DNA from: an uncultured Candidatus Poseidoniales archaeon | GTDB taxonomy: Archaea > Thermoplasmatota > Poseidoniia > Poseidoniales > Poseidoniaceae | Length of the DNA: 64,000 bases | Direction: 5' to 3' | Assembly (NCBI GenBank): GCA_902563095.1 | Contig: CACEWA010000003.1 | Coordinates: forward strand, 1,372 to 65,371 | Shown here: piece by piece, positions 21,905 through 61,380 of the stretch | Position numbering within the stretch: the stretch's first letter is position 1 | How the letters are laid out: every line of letters starts with the position of its first letter | Made by a program: the position numbers and the translations under genes | The notes under the pieces: model-generated | Database searches by the model: none | What the model saw: the letters and a program-made list of their open reading frames with translations, nothing else | Told to the model about the DNA's origin: nothing

Positions 21905-21912
21905 TTTATCAC

Positions 21913-24960: not shown

Positions 24961-24970
24961 AATATCACAC

Positions 24971-25471: not shown

Positions 25472-25472
25472 T

Positions 25473-28400
25473 TTACCAGCCCCAGTTCCTGTCTAGAAGA
25501 AGATTGGCTAGTTCACAAGAAGTTTCAGGAAGCAAGACACAAGAATGACAAGCAGCACCATTTGGCTCGTCGATATTTGGATGATGATCAGAGCAAACAG
25601 GGTCATTCGAGCAGGTCCTCAATGAGAGAAGAGCTTCTTTTACCAATTTGTGAATTTTACTAGTTGAGGAACCTCTGCGAACCAAACCTCCGAGAGTACC
25701 ATCTGAAGATGGCCCTGAGGTGTACAGCAAAATTCCACAGTAGATTATCTCATCATTTTCGTCAACATCAAAGTACAACCTTTCCCTAATTGAACCAAGT
25801 GAAAAGCCGCTTGACATTGCCAACTCACGAATTAGTGCATGACTTAGTGTGTGCAATATAGTGAATGCAGAGTTATTCTTTGGATCGACTAGTGCGGGTA
25901 TCTGGTGCTTTACATTTCTTAACCTATTATCGTCATTTGAAAAAATCATATCTCTATGAGATGCATTTTCCAATTTACTATCTCTTTGGTTTTTCATACT
26001 TGTCAGCCATTGAGGTTTGAGATCAAAGAATAGCCCTTCGCCGAAATTATACATTCCAATTCCAAACTCTTCATCAGGAGTATTGCCACGGGTTTCAGGA
26101 TGGTCGATGGGTTGGAAATTGCCTTCTTTAGGATCTAACCTGTCTATGCCAAGTATGTACTTCAATTCAGTCAAGCGATTTATTCGCGTTGCACCTCTGA
26201 GAGGCCAGTCCTCATTTTCCCATAGTACTGGGAACTCTCCGAAATTACCTGCGATAGAGGTTTTATCGAAGCGGTGAGTATCGATTGAATTGTTTTCTAC
26301 GTCGGAATCTATTATTCCATTCCTTTCTCTTCCCCTAAGGTTATTCAAAGTCAGGAAATCTTCGTCCATATGTTTGTTCTTGTAATCCCAAAGAACGCGC
26401 AAGAACTTGTCCCAGTTTGGACCAGCTTCCGGATCATCATCGTCATCAAAATATGTTCCTGATAGGTCAACAGGGTCTCCTAAAACTTCTCTGAGTCCAT
26501 GGAACGCATTCTTGAATTCATCGAATGTTTGATCTTCATTTTGTGCCTTTCTTAACAAGCGTTGAATGTTATCGTTATTCGCTAGGGAAAATGATACATC
26601 TGGTGGTATAAGCAATACCGATGAACCTTGAGAATAACTAACAGATACGTTTCCGACCTGTCTGTGAACCATATGTAAATCACATTCCTCTTTGGCATTA
26701 CCACCCGAAGCTAACCAAGGCCTATGGCCATGACATTTTGGCGCATACCTCTTGTTTGACTGCTCAACCCAAGGGACTTTTTCCATACTGTTTTTCGCAC
26801 CACACTCTTCACATATTACAACCCAATCTGCTAGTGTATAGGCACTGTTCTCACCTTCAACCAATTTGATTTTAGCATTACCATGTCTGCAGGGTTTATC
26901 ATAATCAGTGTCATTAGAATGTGCCCAGAAATTATAGTCAAAAGGAGACAAATGACCATTATCACATATGCTGACGAATCTTGAAGGAGATGTGGGTTTT
27001 CCGCATCCAGGTCTTTGACATGTAGACTCCCCATCTTTCGGAATTACTCCATAATGAACATGTCCGTCTTCACAGATGTAGTTTGTTGGGTATTTCGTAA
27101 CGTTGATGGCACCATATTGCTTATTTCCGTCTTTGTAGGGAGGAACAGAACGCAGAACTCGCTGTTTTCCTTCTGGATTAATGCCTAGGATTTGATTCAA
27201 TGCTGGTTCTGCTATACGCAAACCAGGTACCATCTCATTCTTACCATTAAATGCCGCCATGTGATGCTTCTTGTCCTTACTAACACTAATGTCGTTATTC
27301 CATCTGCTAATACCAAGGGTAAGATAAGGCACTCCTCCTTTTTCCCAAATAAACCCTGGGGCCATATGGCTAAACAAATGAGATTCTGGCATTGAGCCTG
27401 ATGCGTATGGCTTCGTGTCATCTTTGTATGGAACATACGAAATTTCTGTCTCTTCTGCTACATCTCTGAAAGAACCCAACCCGTCTTCATAGTCTTCGTT
27501 ATTTGGATTGTTTGTTGTTCTGAAGGGACTCTTGAGCCAAGACAGGGGTTGGTTAACTTTGATGTTCATCCTTTGCCTATCGTTCCAGACTATCCACCAA
27601 GTGACTTTCTCTTGCTCTTTTGCGTTTCGAACGAATCTCTTCAACCCATCCCATTTTTCGTTAATGATATTCTCGCCTTCAGAGATTATTTGCTCTGACA
27701 TTCCTCTTTGTCTCTGCCGTCTGTTTATTTCTTGGATGAACTCAGAAATTATCTCGTCGCCTCTAACTCTGCAGTCTCCGTTCATTATTCTAGTCAAATC
27801 CTTCGTTTTCCTGACTTGACGAATTGATGACCTCAACAATAACATCATTGTAGATGCAAACGCTCTATCTAAAGCTCTGTGAGAGAATGGTGTAATACTG
27901 GTATGATCTACATGTGAATAGATTTCCTGATGGAATGCTCTGAACAATTCGTAATGTGATTGGTCTCTAGGATAATTTCCCTTCAGTAGGGATAGAACCA
28001 TACCTGGATGTTTTCGACCGACTCTTCCACTGGATTGTATATACTCAGAGTTACTTCTTGGTTGTCCGACTATACTCATTAATCCCAGTCTGCCTATGTC
28101 TATACCCACTTGGAACATATTACTAGTTGAAACTACATCGACGACATTCTTTCCAGATGATAAATCGAACTCTAAGTGCTCTTTTGCAATAGATAATTCT
28201 TCACCAGTCTTTCTACTGGTCAATTCCTTCTCTGAATACAATTCTCTTGGCTTACTATCACTATGCTGAGCGAATAACCTAATCATTTGTGGAATGTTTT
28301 TCCTCAGAGACGATTGCCCTCCACCAAGTTCTCTCAAACTGTTGTAATAGAGTACTAGAGTCCAGTATGGATCTAAGTCTTCATCTTTGACTTCACTTTT

Positions 28401-30854: not shown

Positions 30855-30893
30855 GTTATCTCACCCAAGGTAGTTTCTCAGAATTTGTAATCT

Positions 30894-30907
30894 TGTAAAA
30901 TTTTACA
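30894..30907. promoter_or_regulatory. Perfect palindrome TGTAAAATTTTACA (TGTAA-N4-TTACA), candidate operator/promoter element
   Basis: Read directly. It lies in the 74-nt gap between the Cas10-like gene stop (30929) and the helicase-DUF1998 start (30854), 39 nt upstream of that ATG. Confidence 0.45.
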
Positions 30908-30928
30908 TCCCATTTGATTCGCGATTAT

Positions 30929-32950
30929 TTAGACAGGGTGTTGGTATAGTACAGAACCGCCGTTCAGTTCTACGAAACCGTCGTCGTCTGCAACTTTATC
31001 ATACTGCTTCTTTGACCCGTCATATTCCTCAATCATCCAACCTTTTGTTGAATCTTCATCGATTTTTTGCTTCCAAAACCGTTTTGCCCTCTTCTCAGCC
31101 GATTTAGACTTTCTCATCATATTCATAATGTTGTCATCAACATCTTTCGTTGACAAACCGGCTCCAAAGCTTAACTCAAAAGGAGCATATTCGGATTCTG
31201 AAAGTTCGCCAAGCTTTTGGGATAAGTCCTTGATTACTCGTCGCAATTTGGGTGTTGGGTTTTTCCCTACAGGAACATAATCTGCTAGGATTATGTCGTC
31301 CCCTGCAGCCACCCAGGCTACGATTTGATCTATCTTCAAATCTTGATTATCTAATGCGTCATTTACTATTGACCACCATTGGCTGTTGAATCTCATAGAC
31401 CTTCTACGCTTAGTATCAATACTGTTGTCAACTTCATGTTCACGAGACCTCGTAAACAAAACGCCAAGTGAGTTCAAATCTAACCTTGCAACGCCATTTA
31501 CCGTTCTTTGGTAATTATTGGTGAACGACTGAGGTAATCCAAACTCCTTAGTGGTCGAATCAATCATTCGTTGTGCTTTACCTATGTTATACAATAGGCG
31601 GTGGAAATTGCAATACGGGTTTGATGAGTCGTTAATTTGATTGTCACGATTGAATGCATTGCCGACCAATTCAACATCTTCCGAACAAATACAACAATCA
31701 GAATTTACTATCTTCTGGAAATCTATTTTCTCGGGGATATCGTCATCAACTACTATTGAAAGCACAGGTAGGTGGCGTATAATCCAATCTTTAATCACTT
31801 TATTTCGTTTTGATTCATCTTTCCATTGGCCAGGACCAATCTCGTAGATTTGGCCGAAATCGGATGCTGACAGTTTGTCTGATATTTTCCGAGATAGAGT
31901 TCTTGTTACCATTTCTAATTCGTTCTGGAAGTATGGTTGATGATTATTCGAGATTAAGAATACTCGATAGAAAGCATCTTCTAACATTCCTTTGGCAGAG
32001 GAATCGCCAAAAAATTCTATTCTTCCTCCTCCATCAATAATTATTGATTCGACACCATATTTCTCAATTATGTTGAACCTAAATCGTGACATCACACTCT
32101 CAAGAATTGCTGATGCACCACGTATAAATGCGGCGTCATCATTCCATTTTTGATACTTGTCAGACCAATTTGTAATCCAACTTTGGATGCTTCTCATCTT
32201 CACACTTACCCTCGTACCATTTATGCAATTCATCAGATCTTCGTTATCTACCCAACCTATACAATATTTCTTTGGCCGATGTTTTGAACGAATGGTTGGG
32301 ATTTTTTTATCGCCATCCCATTCACTCCATTTGTTTCCGATTATGTCTTTGACTTCATCTCTTGGCCAAAATGCAGCAATCCTGCTCTGATCATTTGAAT
32401 GGATGGCTAACAATAATTTGTGTTCTTTGTCAGAAAATGAATTTTCTGGACTTTGTTCTAGACCACGTATAGATAACAATAATATTGACAAAAATCTCCT
32501 ATGAGCCGCCTGAAATTCTTTTCTAGAATTGTCTTCTTCTGCTTTTGATTCTAATTCATTTACCAATCGTAATGCCGATATCTTTTCTTTAGACTGAGTT
32601 AGATTGGTCTTCATATCATGTGCTTTATTCAGCAAAGCACTACGTAAGCTAGTTGCAGAACCATCAGGAGAGTGAATTGAATCTAGATAGAGTGTTAGTC
32701 TCAATGCTTTTGCAGCCTTACTGCTAAGTGGCCAATCTAAAGGGTACCTTCCTACGTCTATCTCTGGATACCCCGCAATGATCTGTACGAGGCGATTATG
32801 TCTGACTGAAGCATCAAGTTTTACCGTTTCCTCGCCAGGCCAGTTCAAAATGAATTCTCTAATCAAATCTAGAGGGTGCTCACCTTCCTTCAATATCTCG
32901 GATGAAGAAAGTGGCGGCGAACCTTCGAACCACGGATTTGGAGCGCCCAT
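30929..32950 (-). CDS. Cas10-like (GGDEF/polymerase-palm) candidate cyclase, no evident HD domain, not CRISPR-associated in this window
   Basis: 673 aa. Motifs in order: ESIIIDGGGRIEFFG (Palm1-like), Cys/His cluster DCCICSED...NPYCNFHRLLYNIGK (position of the Cas10 zinc finger), VARLDLNSLGVLF (DxD/N-x-h-G strand), RRRSMRFNSQWW, WVAAGDDIILADY (GGDD equivalent). The ORF itself is solid. The family call is motif-level only. Confidence 0.5.
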   Translation of the reverse strand: MGAPNPWFEGSPPLSSSEILKEGEHPLDLIREFILNWPGEETVKLDASVRHNRLVQIIAGYPEIDVGRYPLDWPLSSKAAKALRLTLYLDSIHSPDGSATSLRSALLNKAHDMKTNLTQSKEKISALRLVNELESKAEEDNSRKEFQAAHRRFLSILLLSIRGLEQSPENSFSDKEHKLLLAIHSNDQSRIAAFWPRDEVKDIIGNKWSEWDGDKKIPTIRSKHRPKKYCIGWVDNEDLMNCINGTRVSVKMRSIQSWITNWSDKYQKWNDDAAFIRGASAILESVMSRFRFNIIEKYGVESIIIDGGGRIEFFGDSSAKGMLEDAFYRVFLISNNHQPYFQNELEMVTRTLSRKISDKLSASDFGQIYEIGPGQWKDESKRNKVIKDWIIRHLPVLSIVVDDDIPEKIDFQKIVNSDCCICSEDVELVGNAFNRDNQINDSSNPYCNFHRLLYNIGKAQRMIDSTTKEFGLPQSFTNNYQRTVNGVARLDLNSLGVLFTRSREHEVDNSIDTKRRRSMRFNSQWWSIVNDALDNQDLKIDQIVAWVAAGDDIILADYVPVGKNPTPKLRRVIKDLSQKLGELSESEYAPFELSFGAGLSTKDVDDNIMNMMRKSKSAEKRAKRFWKQKIDEDSTKGWMIEEYDGSKKQYDKVADDDGFVELNGGSVLYQHPV

Positions 32951-32975
32951 TGTTGTTTACAATGAGCCCAATGAT

Positions 32976-33368
32976 TTAGTTTTCATCCCTTCCAAGATTA
33001 ATCATATCTAACGAAATGCATGTCACTCCTTCTTGAGTAAACCAAATTGTACCAGAGATTTTCGCGCTTTGCATAAATTGCTTAAGAGAATCTCCTCTCA
33101 TCCAATCTCTAATAGCTGTGCCACCATTAAAACCATGGATAAACCTGACACCGCGCTTCAGATCTGCTTTTGCATCTCTCAATTCTTCTTTGATTCGATT
33201 TTTTGCATTATGTAGAGCCAAATCATGAAGATTGACAGTTAAATATCCTGAATCGTCCCCAACATTTTGCCTAAAGGTACGTGGAGTTGGACGGTTTCGA
33301 TTAGTCCTTCTCTTATGGTGGTTTTTTCCATGTAGGAATCTATCCATCTGAAATTTCCTATTACTCAT
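32976..33368 (-). CDS. Smr (small MutS-related) domain-like protein with a basic N-terminus
   Basis: TVNLHDLALHNAKNRIKEELRDA...RGVRFIHGFNGGTAIRDWM resembles the Smr pattern lDLHGl..eeA...l.......v.iIHGkG.G.L. I chose the ATG at 33368, which forms an ATGA overlap with the kinase stop. The track start is 33407. Confidence 0.5.
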   Translation of the reverse strand: MSNRKFQMDRFLHGKNHHKRRTNRNRPTPRTFRQNVGDDSGYLTVNLHDLALHNAKNRIKEELRDAKADLKRGVRFIHGFNGGTAIRDWMRGDSLKQFMQSAKISGTIWFTQEGVTCISLDMINLGRDEN

Positions 33369-33982
33369 TGGAAAGCCTCCTGAATAATTTCTAATGCCTC
33401 TTGACAAACCTCATCAGGACTTTTGTTACTAGTGTCGATAACTACTGGCTTGAATTTCAGATATGTTTCAAGCACCTTCTCACGCTTAATTTTGCTAGCA
33501 GCTAATTCTGATTCTTCCTTTGTTTCAGCCTCGCCACGCCCATGCAAACGAGTCAAACGATTCTCCTCATCTACTGTGAGTAGTATTAACAAATCGGGCC
33601 TCCTAATCTCGTCGGGATATTGTCCAATCTCAATATCGTGTTCGAATCCTTCATCCATCGCAGCAAATGCTGCAGTACTAGTCCAATATCTATCCATAAT
33701 CACATGCCTATCAGAAATTACATTGGTCACTTGCTCACTTGCTACCAAGTTCGAAAAACGATAATATGCTCTGCGTTGGAGCGGGTTCAATGAATCAAAA
33801 TGAGTTCTTGCAGACCCCTCTTTAATTGAGGGAATATTGATCTCTGGTGGGCAAGAAAGTTGGGCAGCATTAAGGTAAACACTCAACTTCTCAACTAGTG
33901 TAGACTTACCAGTAGCATCAAGACCTTCGATTACGATGAACTTATTCACAAAGCCACCCCCATTGAATTCTCCCAATCCCAT
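33365..33982 (-). CDS. Nucleoside monophosphate kinase (thymidylate kinase-like P-loop)
   Basis: 205 aa. FIVIEGLDATGKSTLVEKL is the dTMP-kinase-type P-loop context. It overlaps the viperin gene 3' end. Confidence 0.8.
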   Translation of the reverse strand: MGLGEFNGGGFVNKFIVIEGLDATGKSTLVEKLSVYLNAAQLSCPPEINIPSIKEGSARTHFDSLNPLQRRAYYRFSNLVASEQVTNVISDRHVIMDRYWTSTAAFAAMDEGFEHDIEIGQYPDEIRRPDLLILLTVDEENRLTRLHGRGEAETKEESELAASKIKREKVLETYLKFKPVVIDTSNKSPDEVCQEALEIIQEAFQ

Positions 33983-34860
33983 TCTCCGCCTCGAGCATTG
34001 AAGGCTTCTAGTGAAAATCCTGGACTTACCTCATTCCAACAATGAGCGAAACCATTTTCTTGAACGGTGCCTTCTGAGTAAAAATAGAATCCATCTTTGT
34101 TTGTATATACTCGGCCAAGTGCATCGATCATCGCATAAGTCCCAAGCATAGCATCATTATTTTCTGGTACTACTTGGATTGAGGTAGAACTAAGCGAGGA
34201 GACATGACGAGAGATATATTCCTCAAAATTATGTTCTGATACCAGAAGAGCTTCTACTCGCCCATCATTTTCTCCATCAATCTTCAGAACTTGGAAAATC
34301 TTCCATCGAGTTGGGTTGATTTGCTTAACTACATCGGTCATATCATCATGCACATTTGCTGAGGTGACCACAGTGTTTAGCTTGATTCCATATCCTAGTT
34401 TGTTAGCCATCTTTGCAATTTCCAAAGCTCGACCCAAATGCCCAGATTCACCATTCTTGAATTCATTAGCATTTGCTCGGCCCATGATTGCATGGATTTG
34501 ATCATTTGAAGCGTCTACAGAAAGCCCCAGCCAGTCAAGGTATGGGCGCATGGATTCGAGCCATTCTTGACTCATCTTAGTACCATTCGAAACGATACTG
34601 GTAGTCATACCTACACGCTTTGACTCCTTAATCCATTCATCTAGGTGAGGATGAAGCATAGGCTCCCCCCCAACGAAATTAATCTTCTCTACTCCTTGAG
34701 ACGCTAGGTCCTGGATGATCTTTAATCCTGCTTCCAAGTCAATCTTTGGCTGCAGACGTTGCTGTTCAAATCCTGCATAACAGAACTTGCAGCGGTAGTT
34801 GCAAAATGCTTCGCAGTGCCAATTTACGGCCTTAGGGATTGTGATGTTGTTTTGTGACAT
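33946..34860 (-). CDS. Prokaryotic viperin homolog (pVip), radical SAM
   Basis: AVNWHCEAFCNYRCKFCYA (viperin-type CNYxCxFC), INFVGGEPMLHP, SIVSNGT, KLNTVV, RWKIFQVLKIDGEND (compare human viperin RWKVFQCLLIEGEN), and a C-terminal Trp-rich tail. I chose the ATG at 34860. The track TTG start is 34887. Confidence 0.85.
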   Translation of the reverse strand: MSQNNITIPKAVNWHCEAFCNYRCKFCYAGFEQQRLQPKIDLEAGLKIIQDLASQGVEKINFVGGEPMLHPHLDEWIKESKRVGMTTSIVSNGTKMSQEWLESMRPYLDWLGLSVDASNDQIHAIMGRANANEFKNGESGHLGRALEIAKMANKLGYGIKLNTVVTSANVHDDMTDVVKQINPTRWKIFQVLKIDGENDGRVEALLVSEHNFEEYISRHVSSLSSTSIQVVPENNDAMLGTYAMIDALGRVYTNKDGFYFYSEGTVQENGFAHCWNEVSPGFSLEAFNARGGEWDWENSMGVAL

Positions 34861-34893
34861 CACTACTATCAGATATTTCAAAGACAAATACCC

Positions 34894-34907
34894 TGTAAAT
34901 TATTACA
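34894..34907. promoter_or_regulatory. Perfect palindrome TGTAAATTATTACA (TGTAA-N4-TTACA) in a divergent promoter region
   Basis: Read directly. It sits between the pVip ATG (34860) and the HNH gene ATG (34945), about 33-38 nt from each. Confidence 0.45.
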
Positions 34908-34944
34908 CTGATTAGGGGATTGTGATAAATCTTTGATTGAGATT

Positions 34945-35898
34945 ATGCTGATCCACGAGCAAGAATACCTAACTATGTTAGAAACTGCATTCAACTTTCT
35001 ATTTCGAAAGGGGAAGCCAGTAAACGGTTCTCCACTAAATCAAGCTAGGCATGAATTTGTTATCACAAACGGAGGATTTTGCCTACATTGTGGCATGAAG
35101 TTGACTCGAAATAATTCTAACACCGAACACATCCATGATCGCGCTCTGGGAGGTATTAACAAGTCTGTAAACAAGGTGATTATGTGTACTTCATGTAACC
35201 TAGCTAGGAACAAGACGATGCAAATTTACCTTGGCTCACCGAGTTACTGGCAAGGTTTCCCAGGGAATTGGGACCGGGTTAAGAAGTATCTTCTTTGGAA
35301 TGCTGTAACAGTAGACAAGGGTCATAACGCGGGAGAGGCTTATCCTGAAGTACACCAAATCTTCGAATCGATTTTACAAAGTAACGGAAATCTGATCAAG
35401 CCGCCAAATCATTGGTTTGGGCGTGGTGATAATTGTGACCTGATTGTTACAAAGCCAAAGCAACGTGGATTTTGGATTCGTATTTTTGACAAAATCTTTG
35501 GCTATGAATCGCCACAAGATACACCCGTAATTACTGTGAATAAAACCAACCTATTGCAGACGGAAGAGAAGAAAGTTAAGGCCGAACGAAAAATTCTGGA
35601 TTTGGATGATGATTTCCGCCATCACATTCTAAACGCATTTAGTAGCATCCAGGGGGAAATTGACCTTGCTACATTTTCAAGTTATTTTCAATTGTATCTC
35701 GTTAGCAAGGATATGCCTAAGCAATCATTGAAGCAATTTGCACGTTCATTCGGAATACCAAAGCGTCGCTCTTTCATCGAAATTATTGAAGACTATTTCC
35801 CAAATGAAATTGAATATCGCCGTGTAGGACAAACCGTGGTTTATATTTCTGCGAAAAATCGTGAGGTTTTTGAATATCTTGCCGATGAAGATGAATAG
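34945..35898 (+). CDS. HNH endonuclease domain protein with an uncharacterised C-terminal domain
   Basis: CLHCGMKLTRNNSNTEHIHDRALGGINKSVNKVIMCTSCNLARN gives the CxxC...H..H...N...CxxCN HNH layout. The ATG at 34945 was chosen. The track TTG start is 34933. Confidence 0.75.
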   Translation: MLIHEQEYLTMLETAFNFLFRKGKPVNGSPLNQARHEFVITNGGFCLHCGMKLTRNNSNTEHIHDRALGGINKSVNKVIMCTSCNLARNKTMQIYLGSPSYWQGFPGNWDRVKKYLLWNAVTVDKGHNAGEAYPEVHQIFESILQSNGNLIKPPNHWFGRGDNCDLIVTKPKQRGFWIRIFDKIFGYESPQDTPVITVNKTNLLQTEEKKVKAERKILDLDDDFRHHILNAFSSIQGEIDLATFSSYFQLYLVSKDMPKQSLKQFARSFGIPKRRSFIEIIEDYFPNEIEYRRVGQTVVYISAKNREVFEYLADEDE

Positions 35899-35912
35899 AA
35901 TGGTGGTCGATA

Positions 35913-36899
35913 ATGAAGCATAGCTACCACTCGATACCGATAACAAAAATTCTTTCAGCAAGTTGTCGTGATTTCTTTTGCTTTCGGGAACTAGAAATAT
36001 TTGACTTCGAAGATGGTTTGAACATCATTGTTGGAAATAATGGGAGCGGAAAGAGTACAGCGGTTAGAATGATTGTAGCAGCACTTTCACCCAATACCTC
36101 ACATGATTGGGATTTCACAACAAGAAATGACAGCACTAAGGGATCCCTAATTGAAATTAGGTTTGTTGTTGAAGAAAAAATATGCTTTTTACGAAGAGTA
36201 ATTGTTCATGGAACTACAACTGATCTTCATTTGTACATAGAAACTGGAACTGAAATGACATTTTTAAGAGACAATGAAGTTGTACGTTTCCTCGCTAAAT
36301 TGAAGCCAATAAATGTAATCAAGACTAACAATTTCGACAAACGAAAGTTCAGGATTACCTTTTCAACTGAACCGCCATCTAAGGACAAAACTTCTACTGA
36401 ATTTTACAAGCTAATAAAAAAGATAATCTCGCAAAAAAAGAACACTCTCGATAAGAACCATGTTTTGTTGATAGAAGAGATCGAATCTAGTATGGATTCC
36501 TTCTACAATGAGCACGTTATTGGAAGTTCCTTGCGATACAAAGATCTGCCAGGCGGATATAGTAGGTTATGGAAGATAATTGGGGATCTCGGAAGACCTA
36601 ATACAGATTTGGTAGCATCTGATTCATCTAAGGTTTACATTATTGACCAAGCAGAACAATATCTGAGTAGAAAAGAATTTCAAATCCTCCTAGATATTCT
36701 TTATTTACTTTCCAAGGAATATGATTTACAATTCATAATCACATCTTCTCGTAAATTAGCAAGCAGTTTGACTAAGCATAATTACATCGATATCAGCCGA
36801 ATAGAGCCCCCAAAACAATATTCTGCTAATCTTTCCCATTCATTGAAACGGTTAAACAAATTATTTACTTATAGAATTACTAAATATCGTTCATGGTGA
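35913..36899 (+). CDS. RecF/SMC-like ABC-type ATPase (AAA_15/21-like)
   Basis: 328 aa. FRELEIFDFEDGLNIIVGNNGSGKST (Walker A), LPGGYSRLWKI (signature-like), KVYIIDQAEQYL (Walker B-like). Confidence 0.75.
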   Translation: MKHSYHSIPITKILSASCRDFFCFRELEIFDFEDGLNIIVGNNGSGKSTAVRMIVAALSPNTSHDWDFTTRNDSTKGSLIEIRFVVEEKICFLRRVIVHGTTTDLHLYIETGTEMTFLRDNEVVRFLAKLKPINVIKTNNFDKRKFRITFSTEPPSKDKTSTEFYKLIKKIISQKKNTLDKNHVLLIEEIESSMDSFYNEHVIGSSLRYKDLPGGYSRLWKIIGDLGRPNTDLVASDSSKVYIIDQAEQYLSRKEFQILLDILYLLSKEYDLQFIITSSRKLASSLTKHNYIDISRIEPPKQYSANLSHSLKRLNKLFTYRITKYRSW

Positions 36900-37738
36900 T
36901 TAATGTGGAAATGGTAAAAGAAATTACTTCCATTTCGCACGATGGGTTTCAAAGCATGTGGTACCCATTCCATTTCGAGAAAGAATTACAAATTAACATA
37001 ATAAATTGTGAATATTTTCGAGAAGGTATCGATTTAATCAAATTAGTACATTGGATGTTTGCAACAAATAATCACAATACTAATACGAGAATCGATAACT
37101 CAAAATCACTTGGAATTTCACAATTAGTTCAATGTAGTGTAGAATTTGTCACTGACAAACATCGATACCTACTGTCCAGAATCTTTCATGACAAGTTTTC
37201 TATCGAAGCTAAATTAGAGGTGTTGGATTCTACAAACGTATACTTTGGAGAAGATGCAATTCGTACTATTCAAAAAATGACAAGACCGATAGTTGTCCCC
37301 AGCGATAGACGAATAATGAGCTCGCTAATTCTTAAGCCACAGGATAACTATTCAAGACAAAGTATGCTAAATTTAGTCGACTTATGGTCTAGATCTCTTG
37401 GCTTTGAAAATATCAAAATTGGATTAACTCCAATTGGACATTGGTCTTATTATCACTCTCGTAAAGAGATAGAGAATAAGCCTCGTCCATCATTATTGAT
37501 GTTGCTTTCAAATCTTGCCCAGGCCACAGTTAGAAAAAGAAAATTTGGTAGGTGTCCTGCCGTCATCTGTTTTGCAGAGATGCACGACCTAAATCAATTA
37601 GAGATAGATTCTGTTATCGAATTGATCTCTACCATTTGCAAAGAAGAAAGACTAAGTTTTGTTCTAGCAACTTCTTCCATTGAAGAAATAGATGTAGAAA
37701 GTGTAAGTAACACCCCTAGGTTTGCAATCTACCGATAA
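36893..37738 (+). CDS. Hypothetical protein, possibly a degenerate paralog of the preceding ABC ATPase (no Walker A)
   Basis: 281 aa, overlapping the upstream gene by 7 nt. The N-terminal KEITSISHDGFQSM...ELQINIINCEYFREGIDL mimics the ABC N-terminus but lacks GxxGxGKS. PAVICFAEMHDL is Walker-B-like. Confidence 0.4.
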   Translation: MVINVEMVKEITSISHDGFQSMWYPFHFEKELQINIINCEYFREGIDLIKLVHWMFATNNHNTNTRIDNSKSLGISQLVQCSVEFVTDKHRYLLSRIFHDKFSIEAKLEVLDSTNVYFGEDAIRTIQKMTRPIVVPSDRRIMSSLILKPQDNYSRQSMLNLVDLWSRSLGFENIKIGLTPIGHWSYYHSRKEIENKPRPSLLMLLSNLAQATVRKRKFGRCPAVICFAEMHDLNQLEIDSVIELISTICKEERLSFVLATSSIEEIDVESVSNTPRFAIYR

Positions 37739-39035
37739 TTTTGTCAAAATTTTCAATTATACGGACTGCATCAGAAGTCAACTCTTTTTTCCACCATGGA
37801 AATCCATTTAATTTTGGGAACAAAAATTTCCTGTGAAGTACATTTCTTCTTTCCAGACCTAATATACTTCCAGCACAATAAGATATGCATAATGCTTCAA
37901 TAGATCCAGCTGCAAAAAACTCATAATTCTGAATTGAGAATGTGTTCTTAAATTTCATTGTCGAATGAATATGTTCCAACAATGATTTTGTCTCATTACC
38001 ATTTCCTTTTGGAATATTAATTTCCATCTTACGCAACCGCTTTAGTAAATTTGCTGATGCTTGAATCAACTGTTGGCTCTCTTCATCTCCGATAAGTACA
38101 TCATGAGAATGATCGACTATTATTCCAACTAGATTGGTAATCGTTTGAAGACTCGGCTCAATAGATAATGATTCTATCTGAGCAATATGATAATTGGTAA
38201 TGGGGTTTATCCAATCGTTCATCTTACGCATTAACTGAATATTTCCAATACTCATTCTTCTAGCAAAAACCCAGAATGGTTCTACATTATTCCAATCCCA
38301 AGATTTGTGAAGATAAGTGCATATCAACGCATATGCCAATCTTTTGTTCGGCCTGCCATTATTATCCATTTCATGTAACATAAATGAGTCAATCAGAGAG
38401 TCGAACCAATCTCGTCTAAATTCCATCGGTGTTGGCCTTTCCACTTCTGATTCAGGCGGCTCTACGTGCTTTTCTACTTTCATTTTTGCAAGTTCATAGT
38501 TTGACTTTAAATCGTCAGTTCCTACGCTATGAAAACGTTCTATGCCATGATATCGTAATCTATTACCAACAAAATAGGGAGGAGACATTTTTCGATATCG
38601 CTCTTCTGTTATTGCACTTCTGTAAAGAGATTTGAGTTTGTACTTATTGGAAAAATCCCTGTAATAACCAATAGATTTTTGTCTTTCTAAACCATCAGAA
38701 ACTTCTTGATCTGTTAATTTCCGACGCTTCAATACCATAGCTAAAGTCTTGTGGCCTACCTGATGGAAAAATTCGGTGTTAGTATAATCGTTTTTATCTA
38801 GATTTTCATCCTGTAATTTCCCATAATCTATTGCGCAGGAAATGCAAATGCCGTAGGGTGCTTCACTAGGATTAAATCCATGATCAATTAAATCATCCTC
38901 AGAAGTTAAATGGATCCCATTAGTTGTGCATTCATCACACCACAATAATTCCTGGTTTTGAAAATCTTCTTCAGTTTCTATACGTGATTGATTGAAGTAC
39001 TCATCATATACATCAGTACTATCCAAAATAATCAC
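37716..39035 (-). CDS. Hypothetical 439-aa protein with an N-terminal zinc-ribbon-like Cys pairs
   Basis: CDEC...CISC near the N-terminus. The GTG start overlaps the upstream stop (GTGA at 39032..39035). No other motif recognised. Confidence 0.5.
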   Translation of the reverse strand: MIILDSTDVYDEYFNQSRIETEEDFQNQELLWCDECTTNGIHLTSEDDLIDHGFNPSEAPYGICISCAIDYGKLQDENLDKNDYTNTEFFHQVGHKTLAMVLKRRKLTDQEVSDGLERQKSIGYYRDFSNKYKLKSLYRSAITEERYRKMSPPYFVGNRLRYHGIERFHSVGTDDLKSNYELAKMKVEKHVEPPESEVERPTPMEFRRDWFDSLIDSFMLHEMDNNGRPNKRLAYALICTYLHKSWDWNNVEPFWVFARRMSIGNIQLMRKMNDWINPITNYHIAQIESLSIEPSLQTITNLVGIIVDHSHDVLIGDEESQQLIQASANLLKRLRKMEINIPKGNGNETKSLLEHIHSTMKFKNTFSIQNYEFFAAGSIEALCISYCAGSILGLERRNVLHRKFLFPKLNGFPWWKKELTSDAVRIIENFDKIIGRLQT

Positions 39036-40690
39036 TCCAAATCTAAGTCATGCGTTGCCCAATTAGCTACAAATTCACCCAATTCTGTTAATACAAATCG
39101 AGATTTCCCAACATCATTTATTTTGGTTATCAATTGATTCGAAATTAAATCTGCAAAACGTGTTTGATTTTGTTCAATACTTATTTGTCTCCCTAACATT
39201 TCGCTTAGTATACTAGCGAACTCCGATATATCACTAAATGTCAGTCCAATATTCTCCTCAGGATTTGCTGATGCAAATAGTAGGTTTTCAATGCTACCAT
39301 CATCATCTTGGCTAAATCTACCCTTTTCGAATTCATTCATTACAATTAAAGAATTTATTTTGCTACTAGCCAATCCTTGCAAAGATTCAAACGCCAAGGA
39401 GGAGGGGATTTCAAGAACATGATCAGTTCTCGAAAATGGCGACCTTGTAACTTGCTCTCCAGTGGCGCCTACTCCCTTGTTCGATTTCATAACATAGCAA
39501 ATTTTGGAACCAGAGGCTAAGGAAAATTTAGAAGCAGAGTTTCTAAGTTTTGCAAAACAAGAAGTCAAATCAATAGACCAAAGATGCTCATCTGTTTTGT
39601 ATTCATATGAAATTATTGATTTGAATAATTCAATCTCAAAATCCAGCATAGATTGATTATCTAACGTCGGATTTACTACAATCAATGGCTCTATTAATTC
39701 GATATCTTCGATTTGAGCTTTCTTGTCCAACAACAATTTGCATTTTTCTAAATCTCTATGCATTCCAGACAACTCTTTTTTTCCAAGTGCCTCTGAAAAA
39801 GTTAATACTCCACTATAGGCTAAATCATCTGAATATCTTTGTAAAACGAAAAGATAACTGTCATGAGGTTCTATTTTTGACATAGTCTGCAGCATATTAA
39901 TTGGCCCGTCATTGAATAATCTGCCAAATGAAATTAGTAATTTTTTGAATACAGGATCACCTGAATCTTGTCGATTTTTCATCCAATATTTCAAAGCAAT
40001 CGGAAAACCCTTGCTTGTTAAAGAGTAGAGTGGGGGCCTGCTTGCATCCCTATTAACAGTGATCATGCCCCTTGATTCGCAGGCTGTAGCAGCAGATTGC
40101 ACACCAGACATCTCTGTAATATTATCTAACTCACAGATTTCTTGGGCTGAGAATTCTGTACCAAAATTTGTACCTGATAATTGAAGAATTGCAGACATTA
40201 TTTTTGGCGCTATTGCTGAATCAATGTATTTTTTATTGTGAAAATATGATTCCAATTCCCCGCCCTCCCAATGATAAAATTTCTCACATTGTATTGAACT
40301 TCCAACTAACCATAGCAAGTAATCGTGTAAAGCTGTGCCTGAGCCAAGCAAGATATCTTTATCCCCGACTATACCGGTTAATGCTTGAAACATTTGTTTA
40401 GAAATGTTCCAGGAAAGGGCCTGTAGTTGATCTGAATTTTCATACCCTTCTGTGGTCAAAGATGGAAGTGAGAATATCGAGGTTGATAATGCCAACTTTT
40501 GTTGAATCTCCTTAGAAGAGTCATTAGGATATACTGAAAATAAGATTAACGAATCGGCATTAATCATTTCAATTCTTTCTAAATCATTAGATCTAAATGT
40601 ATGAGGCGCGATGGCCAATAAAGTTCTCATGTTATTATCTCCTATGAGTTTGTGGTTATTAGAGATGTACTCTACTTTATGAGATACCAT
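39032..40690 (-). CDS. Duplicated CARF-like Rossmann + winged-helix protein (CARF-wHTH-CARF-wHTH candidate)
   Basis: The first half has MRTLLAIAPH..., ILLGSGTALHDYL (G-x-G-T after a strand, as in CARF TGGTK), then a wHTH-like AQEICELDNITEMSGVQSAATACESRGMITVNRDASRPPLYSLTSKG. The second half has LLISFG...YLFVLQRY and a C-terminal wHTH-like LISNQLITKINDVGKSRFVLTELG. Start is uncertain: TTG 40723, ATG 40690 or ATG 40630. Confidence 0.45.
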   Translation of the reverse strand: MVSHKVEYISNNHKLIGDNNMRTLLAIAPHTFRSNDLERIEMINADSLILFSVYPNDSSKEIQQKLALSTSIFSLPSLTTEGYENSDQLQALSWNISKQMFQALTGIVGDKDILLGSGTALHDYLLWLVGSSIQCEKFYHWEGGELESYFHNKKYIDSAIAPKIMSAILQLSGTNFGTEFSAQEICELDNITEMSGVQSAATACESRGMITVNRDASRPPLYSLTSKGFPIALKYWMKNRQDSGDPVFKKLLISFGRLFNDGPINMLQTMSKIEPHDSYLFVLQRYSDDLAYSGVLTFSEALGKKELSGMHRDLEKCKLLLDKKAQIEDIELIEPLIVVNPTLDNQSMLDFEIELFKSIISYEYKTDEHLWSIDLTSCFAKLRNSASKFSLASGSKICYVMKSNKGVGATGEQVTRSPFSRTDHVLEIPSSLAFESLQGLASSKINSLIVMNEFEKGRFSQDDDGSIENLLFASANPEENIGLTFSDISEFASILSEMLGRQISIEQNQTRFADLISNQLITKINDVGKSRFVLTELGEFVANWATHDLDLE

Positions 40691-40704
40691 AAACTCATAA
40701 ATTT

Positions 40705-40718
40705 TGTAAATTATTACA
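40705..40718. promoter_or_regulatory. Perfect palindrome TGTAAATTATTACA (TGTAA-N4-TTACA)
   Basis: Read directly and identical to the 34894 site. It lies between the stop of the 251-aa CARF gene (40730) and the first ATG (40690) of the next gene. It is inside the ORF only if the TTG at 40723 is the real start. Confidence 0.45.
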
Positions 40719-40729
40719 ATCAAACAGGT

Positions 40730-41485
40730 TTAAGCCCAGCCAATAAATGAATCTGGATTGTCTTTCTTCACAGCCTCTAATAAACCTTCAAATTTTTTGA
40801 TTTTTTCTTCTAATAACGAATTTGCTATTGCAGTATTTCCTACCAATTTCAAAATTGTTGTTCCTTCTTCTGTGACAAACCATTTATCTTCATCAATAAA
40901 TAAAATATCCATCTCACAAAATTTCCAAAATACTGGTTCTGGCATAATTTCTGCTAAATCTTTAATCAAACCGCTACCCGCTCTCAAAAATGATATTATT
41001 TCTATAGGTTGGTGCATTACAGATCCTAATCCAAGCAGTTGAGGGAACTCGATGACATCGCGGTTTGGCATAGGTTTGGAACCACTTGGAGGCTGAATTA
41101 CATAAAAAACCCTGGAGCCCAGTAATATACCTGCATAAGTTCCTGCAGCTGCCATGTGCATTGTACCACCCGTGATTCCGATATACCAATCTAAATCAGA
41201 TTCGTGTAGATTATGTTCCTCATGACGTATCGAAATTACCTCATTCAATAATGAAGTTACAGCCGATTGATCAAACAAATTATTGATACTTTTAACTCCA
41301 CCTTGTTTGAAATTATATTGCTTTGACCATTCGTTCAATCGTCTTTTATGCTTAGATGCAAATTTATCAGATGTTACAATATACACTGTTTCTGGAACAT
41401 ATTTTTGGATAGATGTAATTGCATGTTCGACCCTCTCCCCCATGAATAAAATTAAACCATTTTTACGCTCGACAGTTAGAGACAT
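40730..41485 (-). CDS. CARF domain + C-terminal winged-helix protein (Csa3-like regulator candidate)
   Basis: 251 aa. The Rossmann-like N-terminus has GLILFMGE and VYIVTSD. GITGGTMHMAAAG closely matches the CARF TGGTK.M loop of Card1/Can-type sensors. C-terminal KDLAEIM...FCEMDILFIDEDKWFVTEEGTTILKL looks like a wHTH with wing. Confidence 0.5.
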   Translation of the reverse strand: MSLTVERKNGLILFMGERVEHAITSIQKYVPETVYIVTSDKFASKHKRRLNEWSKQYNFKQGGVKSINNLFDQSAVTSLLNEVISIRHEEHNLHESDLDWYIGITGGTMHMAAAGTYAGILLGSRVFYVIQPPSGSKPMPNRDVIEFPQLLGLGSVMHQPIEIISFLRAGSGLIKDLAEIMPEPVFWKFCEMDILFIDEDKWFVTEEGTTILKLVGNTAIANSLLEEKIKKFEGLLEAVKKDNPDSFIGWA

Positions 41486-41528
41486 GATTCTCGGTAAACT
41501 ATCAATGATAATAAATCGATGGTGGCCG

Positions 41529-41546
41529 GATGTAAAAATTTACATC
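41529..41546. promoter_or_regulatory. Palindrome GATGTAAAAATTTACATC (contains TGTAA-N4-TTACA with 7-nt arms)
   Basis: Read directly. It lies about 46 nt upstream of the CARF-wHTH gene start (41485), in the divergent intergenic region 41486..41707. Confidence 0.45.
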
Positions 41547-41644
41547 AAAGATAATTCTAAATTATCACATACTGCTGAGAAGGCTATGACTGTAAATTTG
41601 TGATTACCAGATTAAATTAAATGTATTTTGTTGAAAATAGAACC

Positions 41645-41681
41645 CTAGTAATGTAAATTTTGACAACATTACCATTACTAG
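41645..41681. promoter_or_regulatory. Nested inverted repeats CTAGTAATG...CATTACTAG and GTAATGT...ACATTAC, enclosing a one-mismatch TGTAAATTTTGACA site (41652..41665)
   Basis: Read directly. It ends about 27 nt upstream of the ATG at 41708, the start of the + strand operon. Confidence 0.35.
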
Positions 41682-41707: not shown

Positions 41708-42025
41708 ATGTCACGCAACACCAGAAAGCTTAGCCACCACAAGAGAGCACACAATGGTAGACATCGCGTACGCAAGGGGGATATTTTCCAACCGCGCCCA
41801 TCTAAAGTATATCGTAGACCTTGTGGCTGCAGTAATCAGGATATAGCAACGAAAAACCGGGTTATGGTTCGTGTAATTTTGAAGACTAGGCCTGAGATGC
41901 GATGGGATGGAAATGAGTGGTCTTTATTCATTCCACAACATTTGTCAAAGAGGTTTGGCCGATGCTTGAAACATTTGACTGAAGAAGACAAAACTAAACT
42001 TCGGGAAAGGGGACTAACTGTATAA
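41708..42025 (+). CDS. Small, highly basic hypothetical protein
   Basis: MSRNTRKLSHHKRAHNGRHRVRKGD... is Arg/Lys/His rich. The ATG at 41708 was chosen over the track TTG at 41660, which overlaps the palindrome. Confidence 0.45.
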   Translation: MSRNTRKLSHHKRAHNGRHRVRKGDIFQPRPSKVYRRPCGCSNQDIATKNRVMVRVILKTRPEMRWDGNEWSLFIPQHLSKRFGRCLKHLTEEDKTKLRERGLTV

Positions 42026-46571: not shown

Positions 46572-46585
46572 CGTAATTATTTACA
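46572..46585. promoter_or_regulatory. Near-palindrome CGTAATTATTTACA (one mismatch to TGTAA-N4-TTACA)
   Basis: Read directly, about 43 nt upstream of the 46629 start codon. Confidence 0.25.
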
Positions 46586-61283: not shown

Positions 61284-61380
61284 TCCACTGCTTTCTGTGA
61301 TTCGGTTATGAGAGTACCGCCGTAGGCGGTGTAAACTAAGCCTAGTTTGGCAAAAAAACAAGTTTCCATCGGACTTTTCG

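What the first reader, a model, noticed from the sequence alone, without database searches (positions are those of the whole stretch)
30894..41546. A 14-bp palindrome TGTAA-N4-TTACA recurs at four promoter-proximal intergenic sites of the island
Perfect copies are at 30894..30907 (TGTAAAATTTTACA), 34894..34907 and 40705..40718 (both TGTAAATTATTACA), and 41531..41544 (TGTAAAAATTTACA, with arms extending to GATGTAA/TTACATC). One-mismatch copies are at 41652..41665 and 46572..46585. The perfect sites fall in short non-coding gaps about 15-50 nt upstream of start codons. Those genes are the helicase-DUF1998 gene, the divergent pVip/HNH pair, the double CARF-wHTH gene and the Csa3-like CARF-wHTH gene. 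Skimming every TGTAA in the window by eye, I found no further perfect copy inside coding sequence. The AT-rich centre could double as a TATA box, which would be a classic archaeal repressor arrangement. Two of the sites flank genes for CARF-wHTH proteins. The obvious hypothesis is that a ligand-responsive Csa3-like regulator autoregulates and co-regulates the viperin and helicase/PLD operons.
Basis: seen in the sequence. Interest (0 to 1): 0.85.

Follow-up and report, generated by a model that had tools for sequence, protein, structure and literature searches.

The report
Shared control palindrome of archaeal defence island
A 14-base palindrome sits in front of nearly every operon of a virus-defence gene island in uncultured marine archaea and is kept in place across distant relatives, so it is almost certainly the docking site through which one island-encoded regulator controls many defence systems together.

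Summary
TGTAA-N4-TTACA occurs four times in the window against 0.06 expected, and all four copies are promoter-proximal. Three one-mismatch copies (41652, 46572, 19970) also sit upstream of island operons.

The window is from a Poseidoniales (Marine Group II) archaeon. In 27 related island loci I found 44 more perfect copies at the same syntenic promoters. The arms are invariant, the spacer is always A/T but variable, and the flanks have diverged. In 1.12 Mb of other Poseidoniales DNA there was one copy. A directional box, CTnRAnTATCA, lies exactly 12 bp beyond the palindrome on the transcribed side.

The 251-aa protein is a Csa3-like CARF-wHTH protein: the AF2 model's top Foldseek match is S. 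solfataricus Csa3. Its gene carries the site at the same position, 40-50 nt upstream of its ATG, in most orthologous loci. The island also encodes a stand-alone Cas10-like palm protein, and no CRISPR array or cas genes were detected.

The best reading is an operator of an island-wide, probably nucleotide-messenger-responsive regulon. Three points remain open:
- Which protein binds: the 251-aa protein, its 533-aa tandem paralogue, or a very basic 105-aa protein.
- The sign of regulation.
- The position of the site relative to the TATA box.

I rate it a new variant of the Csa3/promoter-palindrome theme.

The parts
30894..30907 (.). Palindrome site 1 (TGTAAAATTTTACA), 39 nt upstream of the DrmA/B fusion gene and just downstream of the stop of the 673-aa gene
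   Evidence: no orthologous promoter was available for comparison (the DISARM block is absent from L082 and L164)
30871..30881 (-). Box (CTGAGAAACTA on the - strand, a weak copy) 12 nt beyond site 1 towards DrmA/B; followed by SD-like GGGTGA
34894..34907 (.). Palindrome site 2 (TGTAAATTATTACA) in the middle of the 84-nt pVip/HNH divergent gap
   Evidence: the syntenic site is present in L001, L011, L016, L017 and L164
34871..34881 (-). Box (TTGAAATATCT on the - strand) 12 nt beyond site 2 towards pVip; it ends 10 nt before the pVip ATG
40705..40718 (.). Palindrome site 3 (TGTAAATTATTACA) between the 251-aa gene stop and the 533-aa gene
   Evidence: syntenic in L001-L017, where it also faces a divergent 236-aa gene
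41531..41544 (.). Palindrome site 4, 'pal1' (TGTAAAAATTTACA), 45 nt upstream of the 251-aa CARF-wHTH gene
   Evidence: present 40-50 nt upstream of the ATG in most orthologous loci down to 51% protein identity (L017 has a 1-mismatch copy; none found in L016, L023, L025)
41506..41516 (-). BRE/TATA-like box (ATTTATTATCA on the - strand) 14 nt beyond pal1 towards the 251-aa gene, ending 20 nt before its ATG; no SD
41557..41567 (+). Second box (CTAAATTATCA) 12 nt beyond pal1 on the other side, followed by SD-like GAGAAGG and a 5-codon mini-ORF (41586..41603)
41652..41665 (.). Palindrome site 5, 'pal2' (TGTAAATTTTGACA, one arm TGTCA), 42 nt upstream of the 105-aa basic protein gene
   Evidence: a perfect copy at the same place in L010-L021
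41678..41688 (+). Box (CTAGATTATCA) 12 nt beyond pal2; nearly invariant across 9 lineages, followed by conserved GAGGGAAC and the ATG
46572..46585 (.). Palindrome site 6 (CGTAATTATTTACA, 1 mismatch), 43 nt upstream of the 213-aa gene (213-aa / 125-aa / amidohydrolase operon)
   Evidence: a perfect copy at the syntenic place in L014-L017
46598..46608 (+). Box (CTAGGTTATCG) 12 nt beyond site 6
   Evidence: read from the sequence; the same architecture is seen in L016/L017
19970..19983 (.). Palindrome site 7 (TGTAATTTTTTACT, 1 mismatch at the last base), upstream of the 530-aa + 2057-aa genes
   Evidence: L164 has a 1-mismatch site, also at the last base, upstream of the orthologous 531-aa gene
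40730..41485 (-). 251-aa Csa3-like CARF-wHTH protein; candidate binder and sensor
   Evidence: padloc CARF 2e-11; AF2 pLDDT 85.6; Foldseek top hits are Csa3 6wxq/2wte, full length
39032..40630 (-). 532-aa protein, probably a tandem CARF-wHTH x2 paralogue; candidate binder
   Evidence: start set by orthologues; hhalign to the 251-aa family E 1.7e-3; weak CARF fold hits
41708..42025 (+). 105-aa very basic (pI 11.4) Cys/His protein; candidate DNA binder
30929..32950 (-). 673-aa stand-alone Cas10-like palm-domain protein; candidate messenger synthase
   Evidence: Pfam Cas10 palm2 0.011; padloc Cas10 2e-4; invariant DGGGR, DxNSxG and AGDD; adjacent to 251-aa homologues in distant loci
32976..34860 (-). 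pVip (viperin-like radical SAM), thymidylate-kinase-like and Smr-like genes; operon read from site 2
34945..37738 (+). HNH, AAA ATPase and 281-aa genes; operon read from site 2
19988..30854 (-). DISARM-like block (DrmA/B fusion, DrmC, DpdF-like helicase, HEC-06/Orf5-like protein) read from site 1

Best explanation
The palindrome TGTAA-W4-TTACA is the operator of an island-specific transcriptional regulon in a Poseidoniales (Marine Group II) archaeon.

Shown: one copy sits at a fixed place, centred 40-53 nt upstream of the start codon, in at least five of the seven promoter regions of a ~39-kb defence island. It is usually followed 12 bp later by a directional box, CTnRAnTATCA.

Inferred: a dimeric island-encoded protein binds the two 5-bp arms. 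My first choice is the 251-aa Csa3-like CARF-wHTH protein, possibly together with its 532-aa tandem paralogue. That protein would sense a nucleotide second messenger, most plausibly made by the island's own Cas10-like palm protein. It would thereby switch several units together: the viperin operon, the HNH/ATPase operon, the DISARM-like block, the 530/2057-aa genes, the 213-aa/amidohydrolase operon and the regulator genes themselves.

The site lies on or directly against the BRE/TATA region. I lean about 55:45 to repression by occlusion of the core promoter, relieved by the signal, over Csa3a-like activation.
For: Shown:
- Enrichment: 4 copies vs 0.06 expected. L017 has 4 vs 0.03.
- Location: 48 perfect sites in 529 kb of window plus related loci, 44 of them intergenic.
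- Synteny: the sites are at the same promoters in islands whose proteins are 51-86% identical. The arms are invariant, the spacer is always A/T but variable, and the flanks have diverged.
- Specificity: only 1 copy, with a CG spacer, in 1.12 Mb from 80 other Poseidoniales loci.
- A directional box lies at exactly +12.
- The 251-aa protein has a CARF domain and a Csa3-like full-length fold. Its pocket motif GxTGGTMxM is invariant.
- Its gene carries the site in most orthologous loci.
- A variant palindrome, TGTCA-N4-TGACA, sits 45 nt upstream of a 42%-identical homologue in L041. It occurs six times in L032, which has two homologues of the 251-aa protein but no 533-aa or 105-aa homologue.
- The Cas10-like protein keeps its palm motifs and is adjacent to homologues of the 251-aa protein in four distant loci.

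Precedent: Csa3a with the CAPPa palindrome 12 bp upstream of BRE/TATA (PMC8699464). Csa3b with TTTTC-N8-GAAAA repeats directly upstream of the basal promoter, acting as a repressor (PMC5389559).
Against: - No binding, TSS or ligand data exist.
- The wHTH domain of the 251-aa protein is acidic (net -6, pI 4.4). Its predicted recognition helix (residues 183-191, EPVFWKFCE) is hydrophobic and not conserved among lineages that keep identical TGTAA arms.
- Crn1-type ring nucleases have the same CARF+wHTH build and also appear among the fold hits.
- L083 has a variant site with 533-aa and 105-aa homologues but no 251-aa homologue within 20 kb.
- The 14-bp site has half-site centres 9 bp apart. Known Csa3 sites have N8 spacers.
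- S. solfataricus Csa3a bound its palindrome non-specifically in vitro, and cA4 had no effect on binding (PMC8699464).
- The Cas10-like assignment rests on weak profile hits plus motif conservation only.
Confidence: 0.55

Rival explanations
1. The palindrome is a real island operator, but it is bound by another island protein. Candidates are the 532-aa tandem CARF-wHTH protein, whose C-terminal wHTH has a conserved MarR-like recognition helix (E/D)xNxTR, and the 105-aa pI 11.4 Cys/His protein. The 251-aa protein would then be only a regulon member, for instance a Crn1-like ring nuclease that resets the signal.
For: - Both genes carry the site in their promoters and are syntenic with it throughout the clade.
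- The N.TR helix of the 532-aa protein is conserved in all TGTAA lineages and changed in L023, which has TGTCA arms.
- L083 has a variant site with these two proteins and no 251-aa homologue.
- Ring nucleases Sis0811 and Sso2081 are among the fold hits of the 251-aa model.
- The 105-aa protein is the only strongly basic small protein in the regulon.
Against: - L032 (six variant sites) and L041 have neither protein within reach, but do have 251-aa homologues.
- Both wHTH domains of the 532-aa protein are also acidic, and its model is unreliable.
- L083 rests on a single site, which could be chance.
- Csa3 is the best full-length fold match of the 251-aa protein, not a ring nuclease.
Confidence: 0.25
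2. The palindrome is itself a special symmetric core promoter. Its A/T centre would be the TATA box, its arms a BRE on either side, and the box 12 bp downstream the initiator. That would give strong or bidirectional promoters for the island without a dedicated sequence-specific regulator, or with a variant TBP/TFB.
For: - The spacer is A/T-only in 48 of 48 sites.
- The box centre lies about 26-27 bp from the palindrome centre, which is the usual TATA-to-TSS distance.
- SD-like sequences lie between the box and the ATG.
- One palindrome serves two divergent genes at pVip/HNH.
Against: - TBP tolerates much variation, yet G2/C13 and every arm base are invariant.
- The motif is absent from 335 generic Poseidoniales promoters and from 1.12 Mb of control DNA.
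- The variant sites of L032 have a G/C-containing centre (AACCTT) at the same distance from start codons.
- No TBP or TFB gene was recognised among the island ORFs scanned.
Confidence: 0.1
3. The sites are recombination or cassette-junction sequences, or remnants of a mobile element, that mark where defence modules are swapped in and out of the island.
For: - The DISARM-like block is absent in L164, which has a single site at that junction, and is flanked by a site at each end in the window.
- A two-gene module is inserted next to site 3 in other islands.
Against: - Every site lies at a fixed distance upstream of a start codon, with an oriented box, including promoters that show no indel.
- No recombinase was recognised among the island ORFs scanned.
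- The flanks are not repeated.
- A new module needs a promoter anyway, which explains the flanking sites.
Confidence: 0.04
4. The palindromes act as RNA hairpins, either terminators or processing sites, rather than as DNA sites.
For: The sequence is self-complementary. Site 1 and site 3 lie just after the stop codon of the upstream gene.
Against: - The hairpins are only 5-7 bp, A/U-rich and weak (-1.4 to -6.3 kcal/mol) and have no U-tract.
- The arm sequence itself is conserved, not just the pairing.
- The sites occur in divergent promoter gaps where no transcript should end.
Confidence: 0.02

Closest known systems
Csa3a and the CRISPR-associated promoter palindrome CAPPa of Sulfolobales (PMC8699464; Liu et al. 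as cited there)
   Same: A CARF-wHTH protein is encoded next to the genes it controls. A short palindrome occurs at about four promoter sites per genome, is absent from other promoters, lies about 12 bp upstream of BRE/TATA and co-occurs with the regulator. The 251-aa protein's best fold match is this very protein.
   Different: CAPPa is 18 bp (TCCC-N8-GGGA type) and controls CRISPR acquisition genes and arrays. Here the site is 14 bp with an N4 A/T spacer, the targets are non-CRISPR defence systems (viperin, DISARM-like and others), no CRISPR-Cas is present, and the protein has no sequence-level match to Csa3 models.
Csa3b and the RI/RII palindromic repeats of the type I-A interference promoter (PMC5389559)
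   Same: Palindromic repeats lie directly upstream of the basal promoter, are bound by a CARF-wHTH protein, repress the promoter and are relieved on infection. Two tandem sites recall pal1 and pal2.
   Different: The sequence is TTTTC-N8-GAAAA, repression needs Cascade as co-repressor, and a single operon is controlled rather than a multi-operon island.
MM_0565, a CARF-wHTH protein of Methanosarcina mazei (PMC7465815)
   Same: A dimeric euryarchaeal CARF-wHTH protein that binds DNA and changes transcription of a gene outside the cas operons.
   Different: It is encoded at a type I-B CRISPR locus, and no defined palindromic operator or defence regulon was reported.
Crn1-type ring nucleases (Sso2081, Sis0811): CARF plus wHTH-like domain
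   Same: The same two-domain build; they appear among the fold hits of the 251-aa model.
   Different: They are enzymes that degrade cA4, not transcription factors. Their fold matches are clearly weaker (TM 0.35-0.4, rmsd above 12) than that of Csa3 (TM 0.5-0.6).
Bacterial defence-island regulators such as WYL-domain BrxR/CapW (from my own knowledge; WYL regulators in PMC10693628)
   Same: A ligand-sensing domain is fused to a wHTH, encoded beside defence systems, autoregulated and bound to palindromic operators in the promoter.
   Different: The sensor fold differs (WYL versus CARF), the promoter logic is bacterial, and usually one system is controlled rather than five to seven operons.

Membership tests
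Csa3 family (CARF-wHTH transcription factors) | N-terminal CARF (Rossmann-like) domain | tested here: met
   padloc CARF models, 2e-11. The AF2 model is confident in this region. Fold hits are to CARF proteins. The GxTGGTMxM motif is invariant.
Csa3 family (CARF-wHTH transcription factors) | [quoted passage not shown] | tested here: met
   DSSP gives H-E-H-H-E-E at residues 161-204. Foldseek aligns 225 columns to Csa3 6wxq/2wte, E 3e-8, TM 0.5-0.6.
Csa3 family (CARF-wHTH transcription factors) | Sequence-level match to curated Csa3/CasR family models | tested here: not met
   No Pfam or NCBIfam hit. The padloc CasR model scores only 0.0026. The PDB profile search did not find Csa3.
Csa3 family (CARF-wHTH transcription factors) | Encoded in or next to a CRISPR-cas locus | tested here: not met
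   No CRISPR array or Rfam CRISPR repeat in the window. No cas genes among the island ORFs scanned, apart from a weak Cas10-palm hit.
Csa3 family (CARF-wHTH transcription factors) | Specific binding to a promoter palindrome, and binding of a cyclic oligoadenylate | not testable with these tools
   Only indirect evidence is available: the site sits upstream of the protein's own gene in most orthologous loci, and the acidic, variable recognition helix argues for caution.
Transcription-factor operator / regulon motif | Over-represented, restricted to promoter regions, and conserved at orthologous promoters while the flanks diverge | tested here: met
Archaeal TATA box / BRE (the palindrome itself as core promoter) | A/T-rich 8-mer centred about 26 bp upstream of the TSS | tested here: inconclusive
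   The spacer is always A/T, and the box lies about 26 bp from the centre. There are no TSS data. The 251-aa promoter has a better BRE/TATA candidate downstream of the site. The L032 variant has a G/C-containing centre.
Intrinsic terminator / structured RNA | Stable G+C-rich hairpin followed by a U-tract | tested here: not met
   Hairpin energies are -1.4 to -6.3 kcal/mol with no U-tract. There is no Rfam family hit.
DISARM (the block read from site 1) | DrmA helicase, DrmB (DUF1998) and DrmC (PLD) | tested here: met
   The 1793-aa protein matches DrmA at 1e-164 and DrmB at 2e-63. The 166-aa protein matches DrmC at 1e-12.
DISARM (the block read from site 1) | A DrmMI/MII methyltransferase | tested here: not met
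   No methyltransferase model matched the neighbouring ORFs, so I call the block DISARM-like.
Cas10 / GGDEF-type palm-domain cyclases (the 673-aa protein) | Palm domain with a metal-binding Asp motif and a GGDD-like motif | tested here: inconclusive
   Profile hits are weak: Pfam PF22335 at 0.011 and padloc Cas10 at 2e-4. DxNSxG and AGDD are invariant in 6 diverged homologues. One relative is annotated GGDEF and one carries PF22335. No sequence match in the PDB.

The most novel reading that the evidence does not exclude
In uncultured marine Poseidoniales, a CRISPR-independent signalling path controls a whole multi-system defence island from one 14-bp operator. The path would run from a stand-alone Cas10-like cyclase, through a nucleotide messenger, to a Csa3-like CARF-wHTH regulator or a pair of paralogous regulators. 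The island includes viperin, a DISARM-like block, an HNH/ATPase pair and MoxR-VWA-type modules. New modules, such as the DISARM block, would join the regulon by acquiring the palindrome plus box.
Probability: 0.35. Interest if true: 0.8.

Novelty: new variant of a known kind. Interest (0 to 1): 0.66.

Why it matters
How defence islands are regulated as units is largely unknown, especially in archaea. Nothing is known about gene regulation in Marine Group II archaea, which are abundant in the surface ocean and uncultured.

This element gives a precise, testable cis-code: a 14-bp palindrome plus an 11-bp box at fixed spacing. The code links at least six operons of different defence systems to island-encoded CARF proteins and a Cas10-like palm protein.

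If the link holds, CARF/cyclic-nucleotide signalling would extend from CRISPR type III into transcriptional control of unrelated defence systems. It would also show that defence modules can be plugged into a common regulon. The motif is in addition a practical marker for finding such islands in metagenomes.

Tried and rejected
- **Generic promoter element.** Rejected: 1 copy in 1.12 Mb of control Poseidoniales DNA. The box word TATCA is not enriched in 335 generic promoters.
- **RNA hairpin or terminator.** Rejected.
- **A shared palindrome upstream of distant (<=51% identical) homologues of the 251-aa protein.** A blind search found nothing general. A later targeted scan found the TGTCA-N4-TGACA variant in some loci.
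- **Fixing the TATA position.** I used A/T-run and SD-like profiles of generic promoters in the island loci and in 80 control loci. The signals were too weak or mixed, so this stays inconclusive.
- **Structure of the 532-aa protein.** The model was poor (pLDDT 51.8). Only the N-terminal CARF-like domain is usable.
- **PDB sequence searches.** Searches with the 251-aa, 532-aa and 673-aa proteins found nothing significant.
- **Long contigs for P0075 and P0079.** The gene lists came back without DNA.
- **Co-variation of recognition-helix residue 184 with arm position 4.** E occurs in most TGTAA lineages and K in the two TGTCA loci. That is only two loci, L020 has P with TGTAA, and the 532-aa helix changes in the same lineage, so the co-variation does not discriminate between binders.

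Full report
**Observation.** TGTAA-N4-TTACA occurs exactly four times in the 64-kb window, at 30894, 34894, 40705 and 41531. Dinucleotide-preserving shuffles give 0.06 copies, and none of 100 shuffles reached four. Allowing one mismatch gives nine hits against 2.8 expected. Three of the extra hits (41652, 46572, 19970) lie upstream of island genes. Two (6730, 13285) are inside genes and fit chance. With ATG starts, all four perfect sites are non-coding. The window has only about 5 kb of intergenic DNA, in which 0.015 copies are expected. Gaps from palindrome edge to start codon are as follows:
- 39 nt for the DrmA/B fusion gene.
- 33 and 37 nt for the divergent pVip and HNH genes.
- 45 nt for the 251-aa gene.
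- 74 nt for the '563-aa' gene, using the ATG at 40630 that its orthologues support.

**Context.** The window comes from a Poseidoniales (Marine Group II) archaeon. The closest genome hit is MAG SP189, and all protein relatives come from Poseidoniales MAGs or marine metagenomes. Between about 12.2 and 51 kb lies a defence island with these parts:
- A DISARM-like block: a DrmA/B fusion, DrmC, a DpdF-like helicase and a HEC-06/Orf5-like protein.
- A 673-aa Cas10-like palm protein.
- An Smr-like gene, a thymidylate-kinase-like gene and pVip.
- An HNH/AAA-ATPase operon.
- A 532-aa and a 251-aa CARF protein.
- A 105-aa very basic protein.
- An AAA/VWA-metallopeptidase operon and a 213-aa/amidohydrolase operon.

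No CRISPR array or cas operon is present.

**Conservation.** Eighty metagenome loci and several MAG loci encoding relatives of the 251-aa protein were fetched.
- In the 27 loci whose protein is at least 51% identical, there are 44 further perfect palindromes. Across window plus loci, 44 of 48 sites are intergenic, and the other four lie in over-extended ORF starts.
- The sites are syntenic. They lie upstream of the 251-aa gene (edge 40-50 nt from the ATG in most orthologous loci), the divergent 105-aa gene, the 532-aa gene (and of a divergent 236-aa gene where that module is present), in the pVip/HNH gap, upstream of the 213-aa gene, and upstream of the 531-aa gene.
- The arms never vary. The four central bases are always A or T but differ from site to site. 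The flanks have diverged beyond recognition between lineages.
- As a control, 80 Poseidoniales loci around the neighbouring phosphoglycerate kinase gene (1.12 Mb) contain one copy, with a CG spacer.

This is a textbook phylogenetic footprint of an island-specific operator. The window's one-mismatch sites at 41652, 46572 and 19970 correspond to perfect or equally placed sites in relatives, so the regulon has at least seven promoter regions here. Only site 1, upstream of DrmA/B, lacks comparative support, because the DISARM-like block is missing from the related islands I could read.

**Anatomy.** A second, directional element, CTnRAnTATCA, starts exactly 12 nt beyond the palindrome on the side that is transcribed. 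In divergent gaps it occurs on both sides. It is nearly invariant in the 105-aa promoter across nine lineages. It is not a generic promoter word in this order. Between the box and the ATG there are often SD-like runs (GAGGG, GGGTGA, GGAGTG). The box ends 10 nt before the pVip ATG and 15-20 nt before the others.

Two geometries fit these facts:
- **(a) The A/T centre is the TATA box.** The box centre lies about 26-27 bp from the palindrome centre, so the box would span the TSS and the leaders would carry SDs. This explains the strict A/T spacer, the pVip spacing and the single palindrome serving two divergent genes. A bound factor would then occlude TBP/TFB.
- **(b) The box is BRE+TATA of leaderless mRNAs.** This fits the 251-aa promoter very well: TCGA-TTTATTAT lies 20 nt before an ATG without an SD, and distant homologues have GTTTATCA at the same place. 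The palindrome would then be an upstream site, as with Csa3a/CAPPa.

In the pVip/HNH gap (33 and 37 nt) the BRE must touch the palindrome under either geometry. I could not settle this from generic promoter statistics.

**Who binds.** The AF2 model of the 251-aa protein (pLDDT 85.6) has a CARF domain followed by a wHTH. Its best PDB match over its whole length is S. solfataricus Csa3, with and without cA4. Its CARF pocket motif is invariant in 27 homologues that are 35-86% identical. It carries the operator in its own promoter in most orthologous loci.

A variant palindrome, TGTCA-N4-TGACA, is found in these places:
- Upstream of the homologue in L023 and L025.
- 45 nt upstream of a 42%-identical homologue in L041.
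- Six times against 0.08 expected in L032, each 27-80 nt upstream of an ATG. L032 has two homologues of the 251-aa protein but no relative of the 532-aa or 105-aa proteins.

These observations favour the 251-aa family as the binder. Several points count against it:
- Its wHTH is acidic (pI 4.4). Its predicted recognition helix is hydrophobic and varies among lineages with identical arms.
- Ring nucleases share this two-domain build.
- The 532-aa protein looks like a tandem duplicate of the 251-aa protein (hhalign E 1.7e-3 for its second half; weak CARF fold hits for its first). It has a conserved MarR-like helix (E/D)xNxTR.
- The 105-aa protein has pI 11.4 and a CxC...CxxH pattern.
- L083 has a variant site with the 532-aa and 105-aa proteins but no 251-aa homologue.

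I therefore give the 251-aa protein, alone or with its paralogue, about even odds.

**Signal.** The 673-aa protein has weak Cas10 palm hits. It keeps DGGGR, DxNSxG, AGDD and a Cys/His cluster in six diverged homologues. Its family is confined to Poseidoniales. In four distant loci it is encoded immediately after a homologue of the 251-aa protein. A dedicated cyclase-sensor pair is thus a reasonable inference, but it is untested.

**Rivals.** Hairpin energies and the lack of a U-tract exclude an RNA or terminator role. A purely TBP/TFB-read symmetric promoter is unlikely, given the invariant G/C positions, the absence of the motif from generic promoters and the G/C-centred variant. A recombination role is suggested only by the DISARM-like block being flanked by sites in the window where L164 has one site. 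The fixed promoter geometry explains that observation more simply.

**Comparison and verdict.** The closest known cases are the Sulfolobales Csa3a/CAPPa and Csa3b/RI-RII systems. Both pair a CARF-wHTH regulator with palindromes directly upstream of BRE/TATA, at a handful of loci-specific promoters (PMC8699464, PMC5389559). This element works like those systems, but it differs in four ways:
- The site has 5-bp arms, an N4 A/T spacer and an added box.
- The targets are non-CRISPR defence systems.
- There is no CRISPR-Cas context.
- The host lineage is different.

The protein fails sequence-level membership of Csa3 while matching its fold. I rate the finding a new variant of a known kind, well supported as a cis-regulatory regulon. 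Three things remain open: the binder, the ligand and the sign of regulation.

Noticed in passing
window 30929..32950 (-); L028, L032, L060, L076, L082, L164: A 620-860-aa stand-alone Cas10-like palm-domain protein family confined to Poseidoniales. DGGGR, DxNSxG, AGDD, RRRSxRFNxxWW and a Cys/His cluster are invariant. In distant loci it is encoded directly after a homologue of the 251-aa CARF protein. It has no CRISPR context.
   Followed up: partly
window 19988..30854 versus L164 10001..13568: The DISARM-like block is an insertion relative to L164, where the Cas10-like gene is followed at once by the 531-aa and 2083-aa genes. The window has a palindrome at each end of the block, and L164 has one at the junction. 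No methyltransferase was recognised in the block.
   Followed up: partly
L001 8096..10014 and equivalents in L005, L011, L016, L017; window 40719..40729: A two-gene module (403 aa and 236 aa, no known family) lies between the 251-aa gene and palindrome site 3 in several islands. It is absent from the window. There the palindrome serves the 236-aa gene and the 532-aa gene divergently.
   Followed up: partly
window 41557..41603: On its far side, pal1 carries a second copy of the box, followed by SD-like GAGAAGG and a 5-codon mini-ORF (ATGACTGTAAATTTGTGA). Similar mini-ORFs occur in L001, L005, L012 and L014 but not in L010 or L017. It could be a second promoter for the 105-aa gene or a small transcript.
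   Followed up: partly
window 41708..42025 (+): A 105-aa protein with pI 11.4, conserved LSHHK..HNGR.R.R.GDIFQPRP..Y.RPCGC and FGRC..HL motifs, and no family in Pfam or PADLOC. It is syntenic with the palindromes and also present in L083 and L023.
   Followed up: partly
L032 1021, 2274, 4187, 4393, 5458, 16122; L041 5636, 9802: Six TGTCA-N4-TGACA palindromes (mostly TGTCAACCTTGACA) in one 20.7-kb locus, each upstream of an ATG. The genes are of unknown function except a CSD-domain protein and a HEPN-TPR protein. This looks like a sister regulon with altered arms and a G/C spacer.
   Followed up: partly
window 40730..40750 (C-terminus of the 251-aa protein) and alignment A1: Close homologues of the 251-aa protein end in a conserved S-[FY]-[IV]-G-W-A tail after an acidic linker. 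This may be a short docking motif.
   Followed up: no
window 58162..58203: A short (TCATCG)n tandem repeat inside the 1113-aa ORF at 58095..61436. It probably encodes an acidic low-complexity stretch.
   Followed up: no
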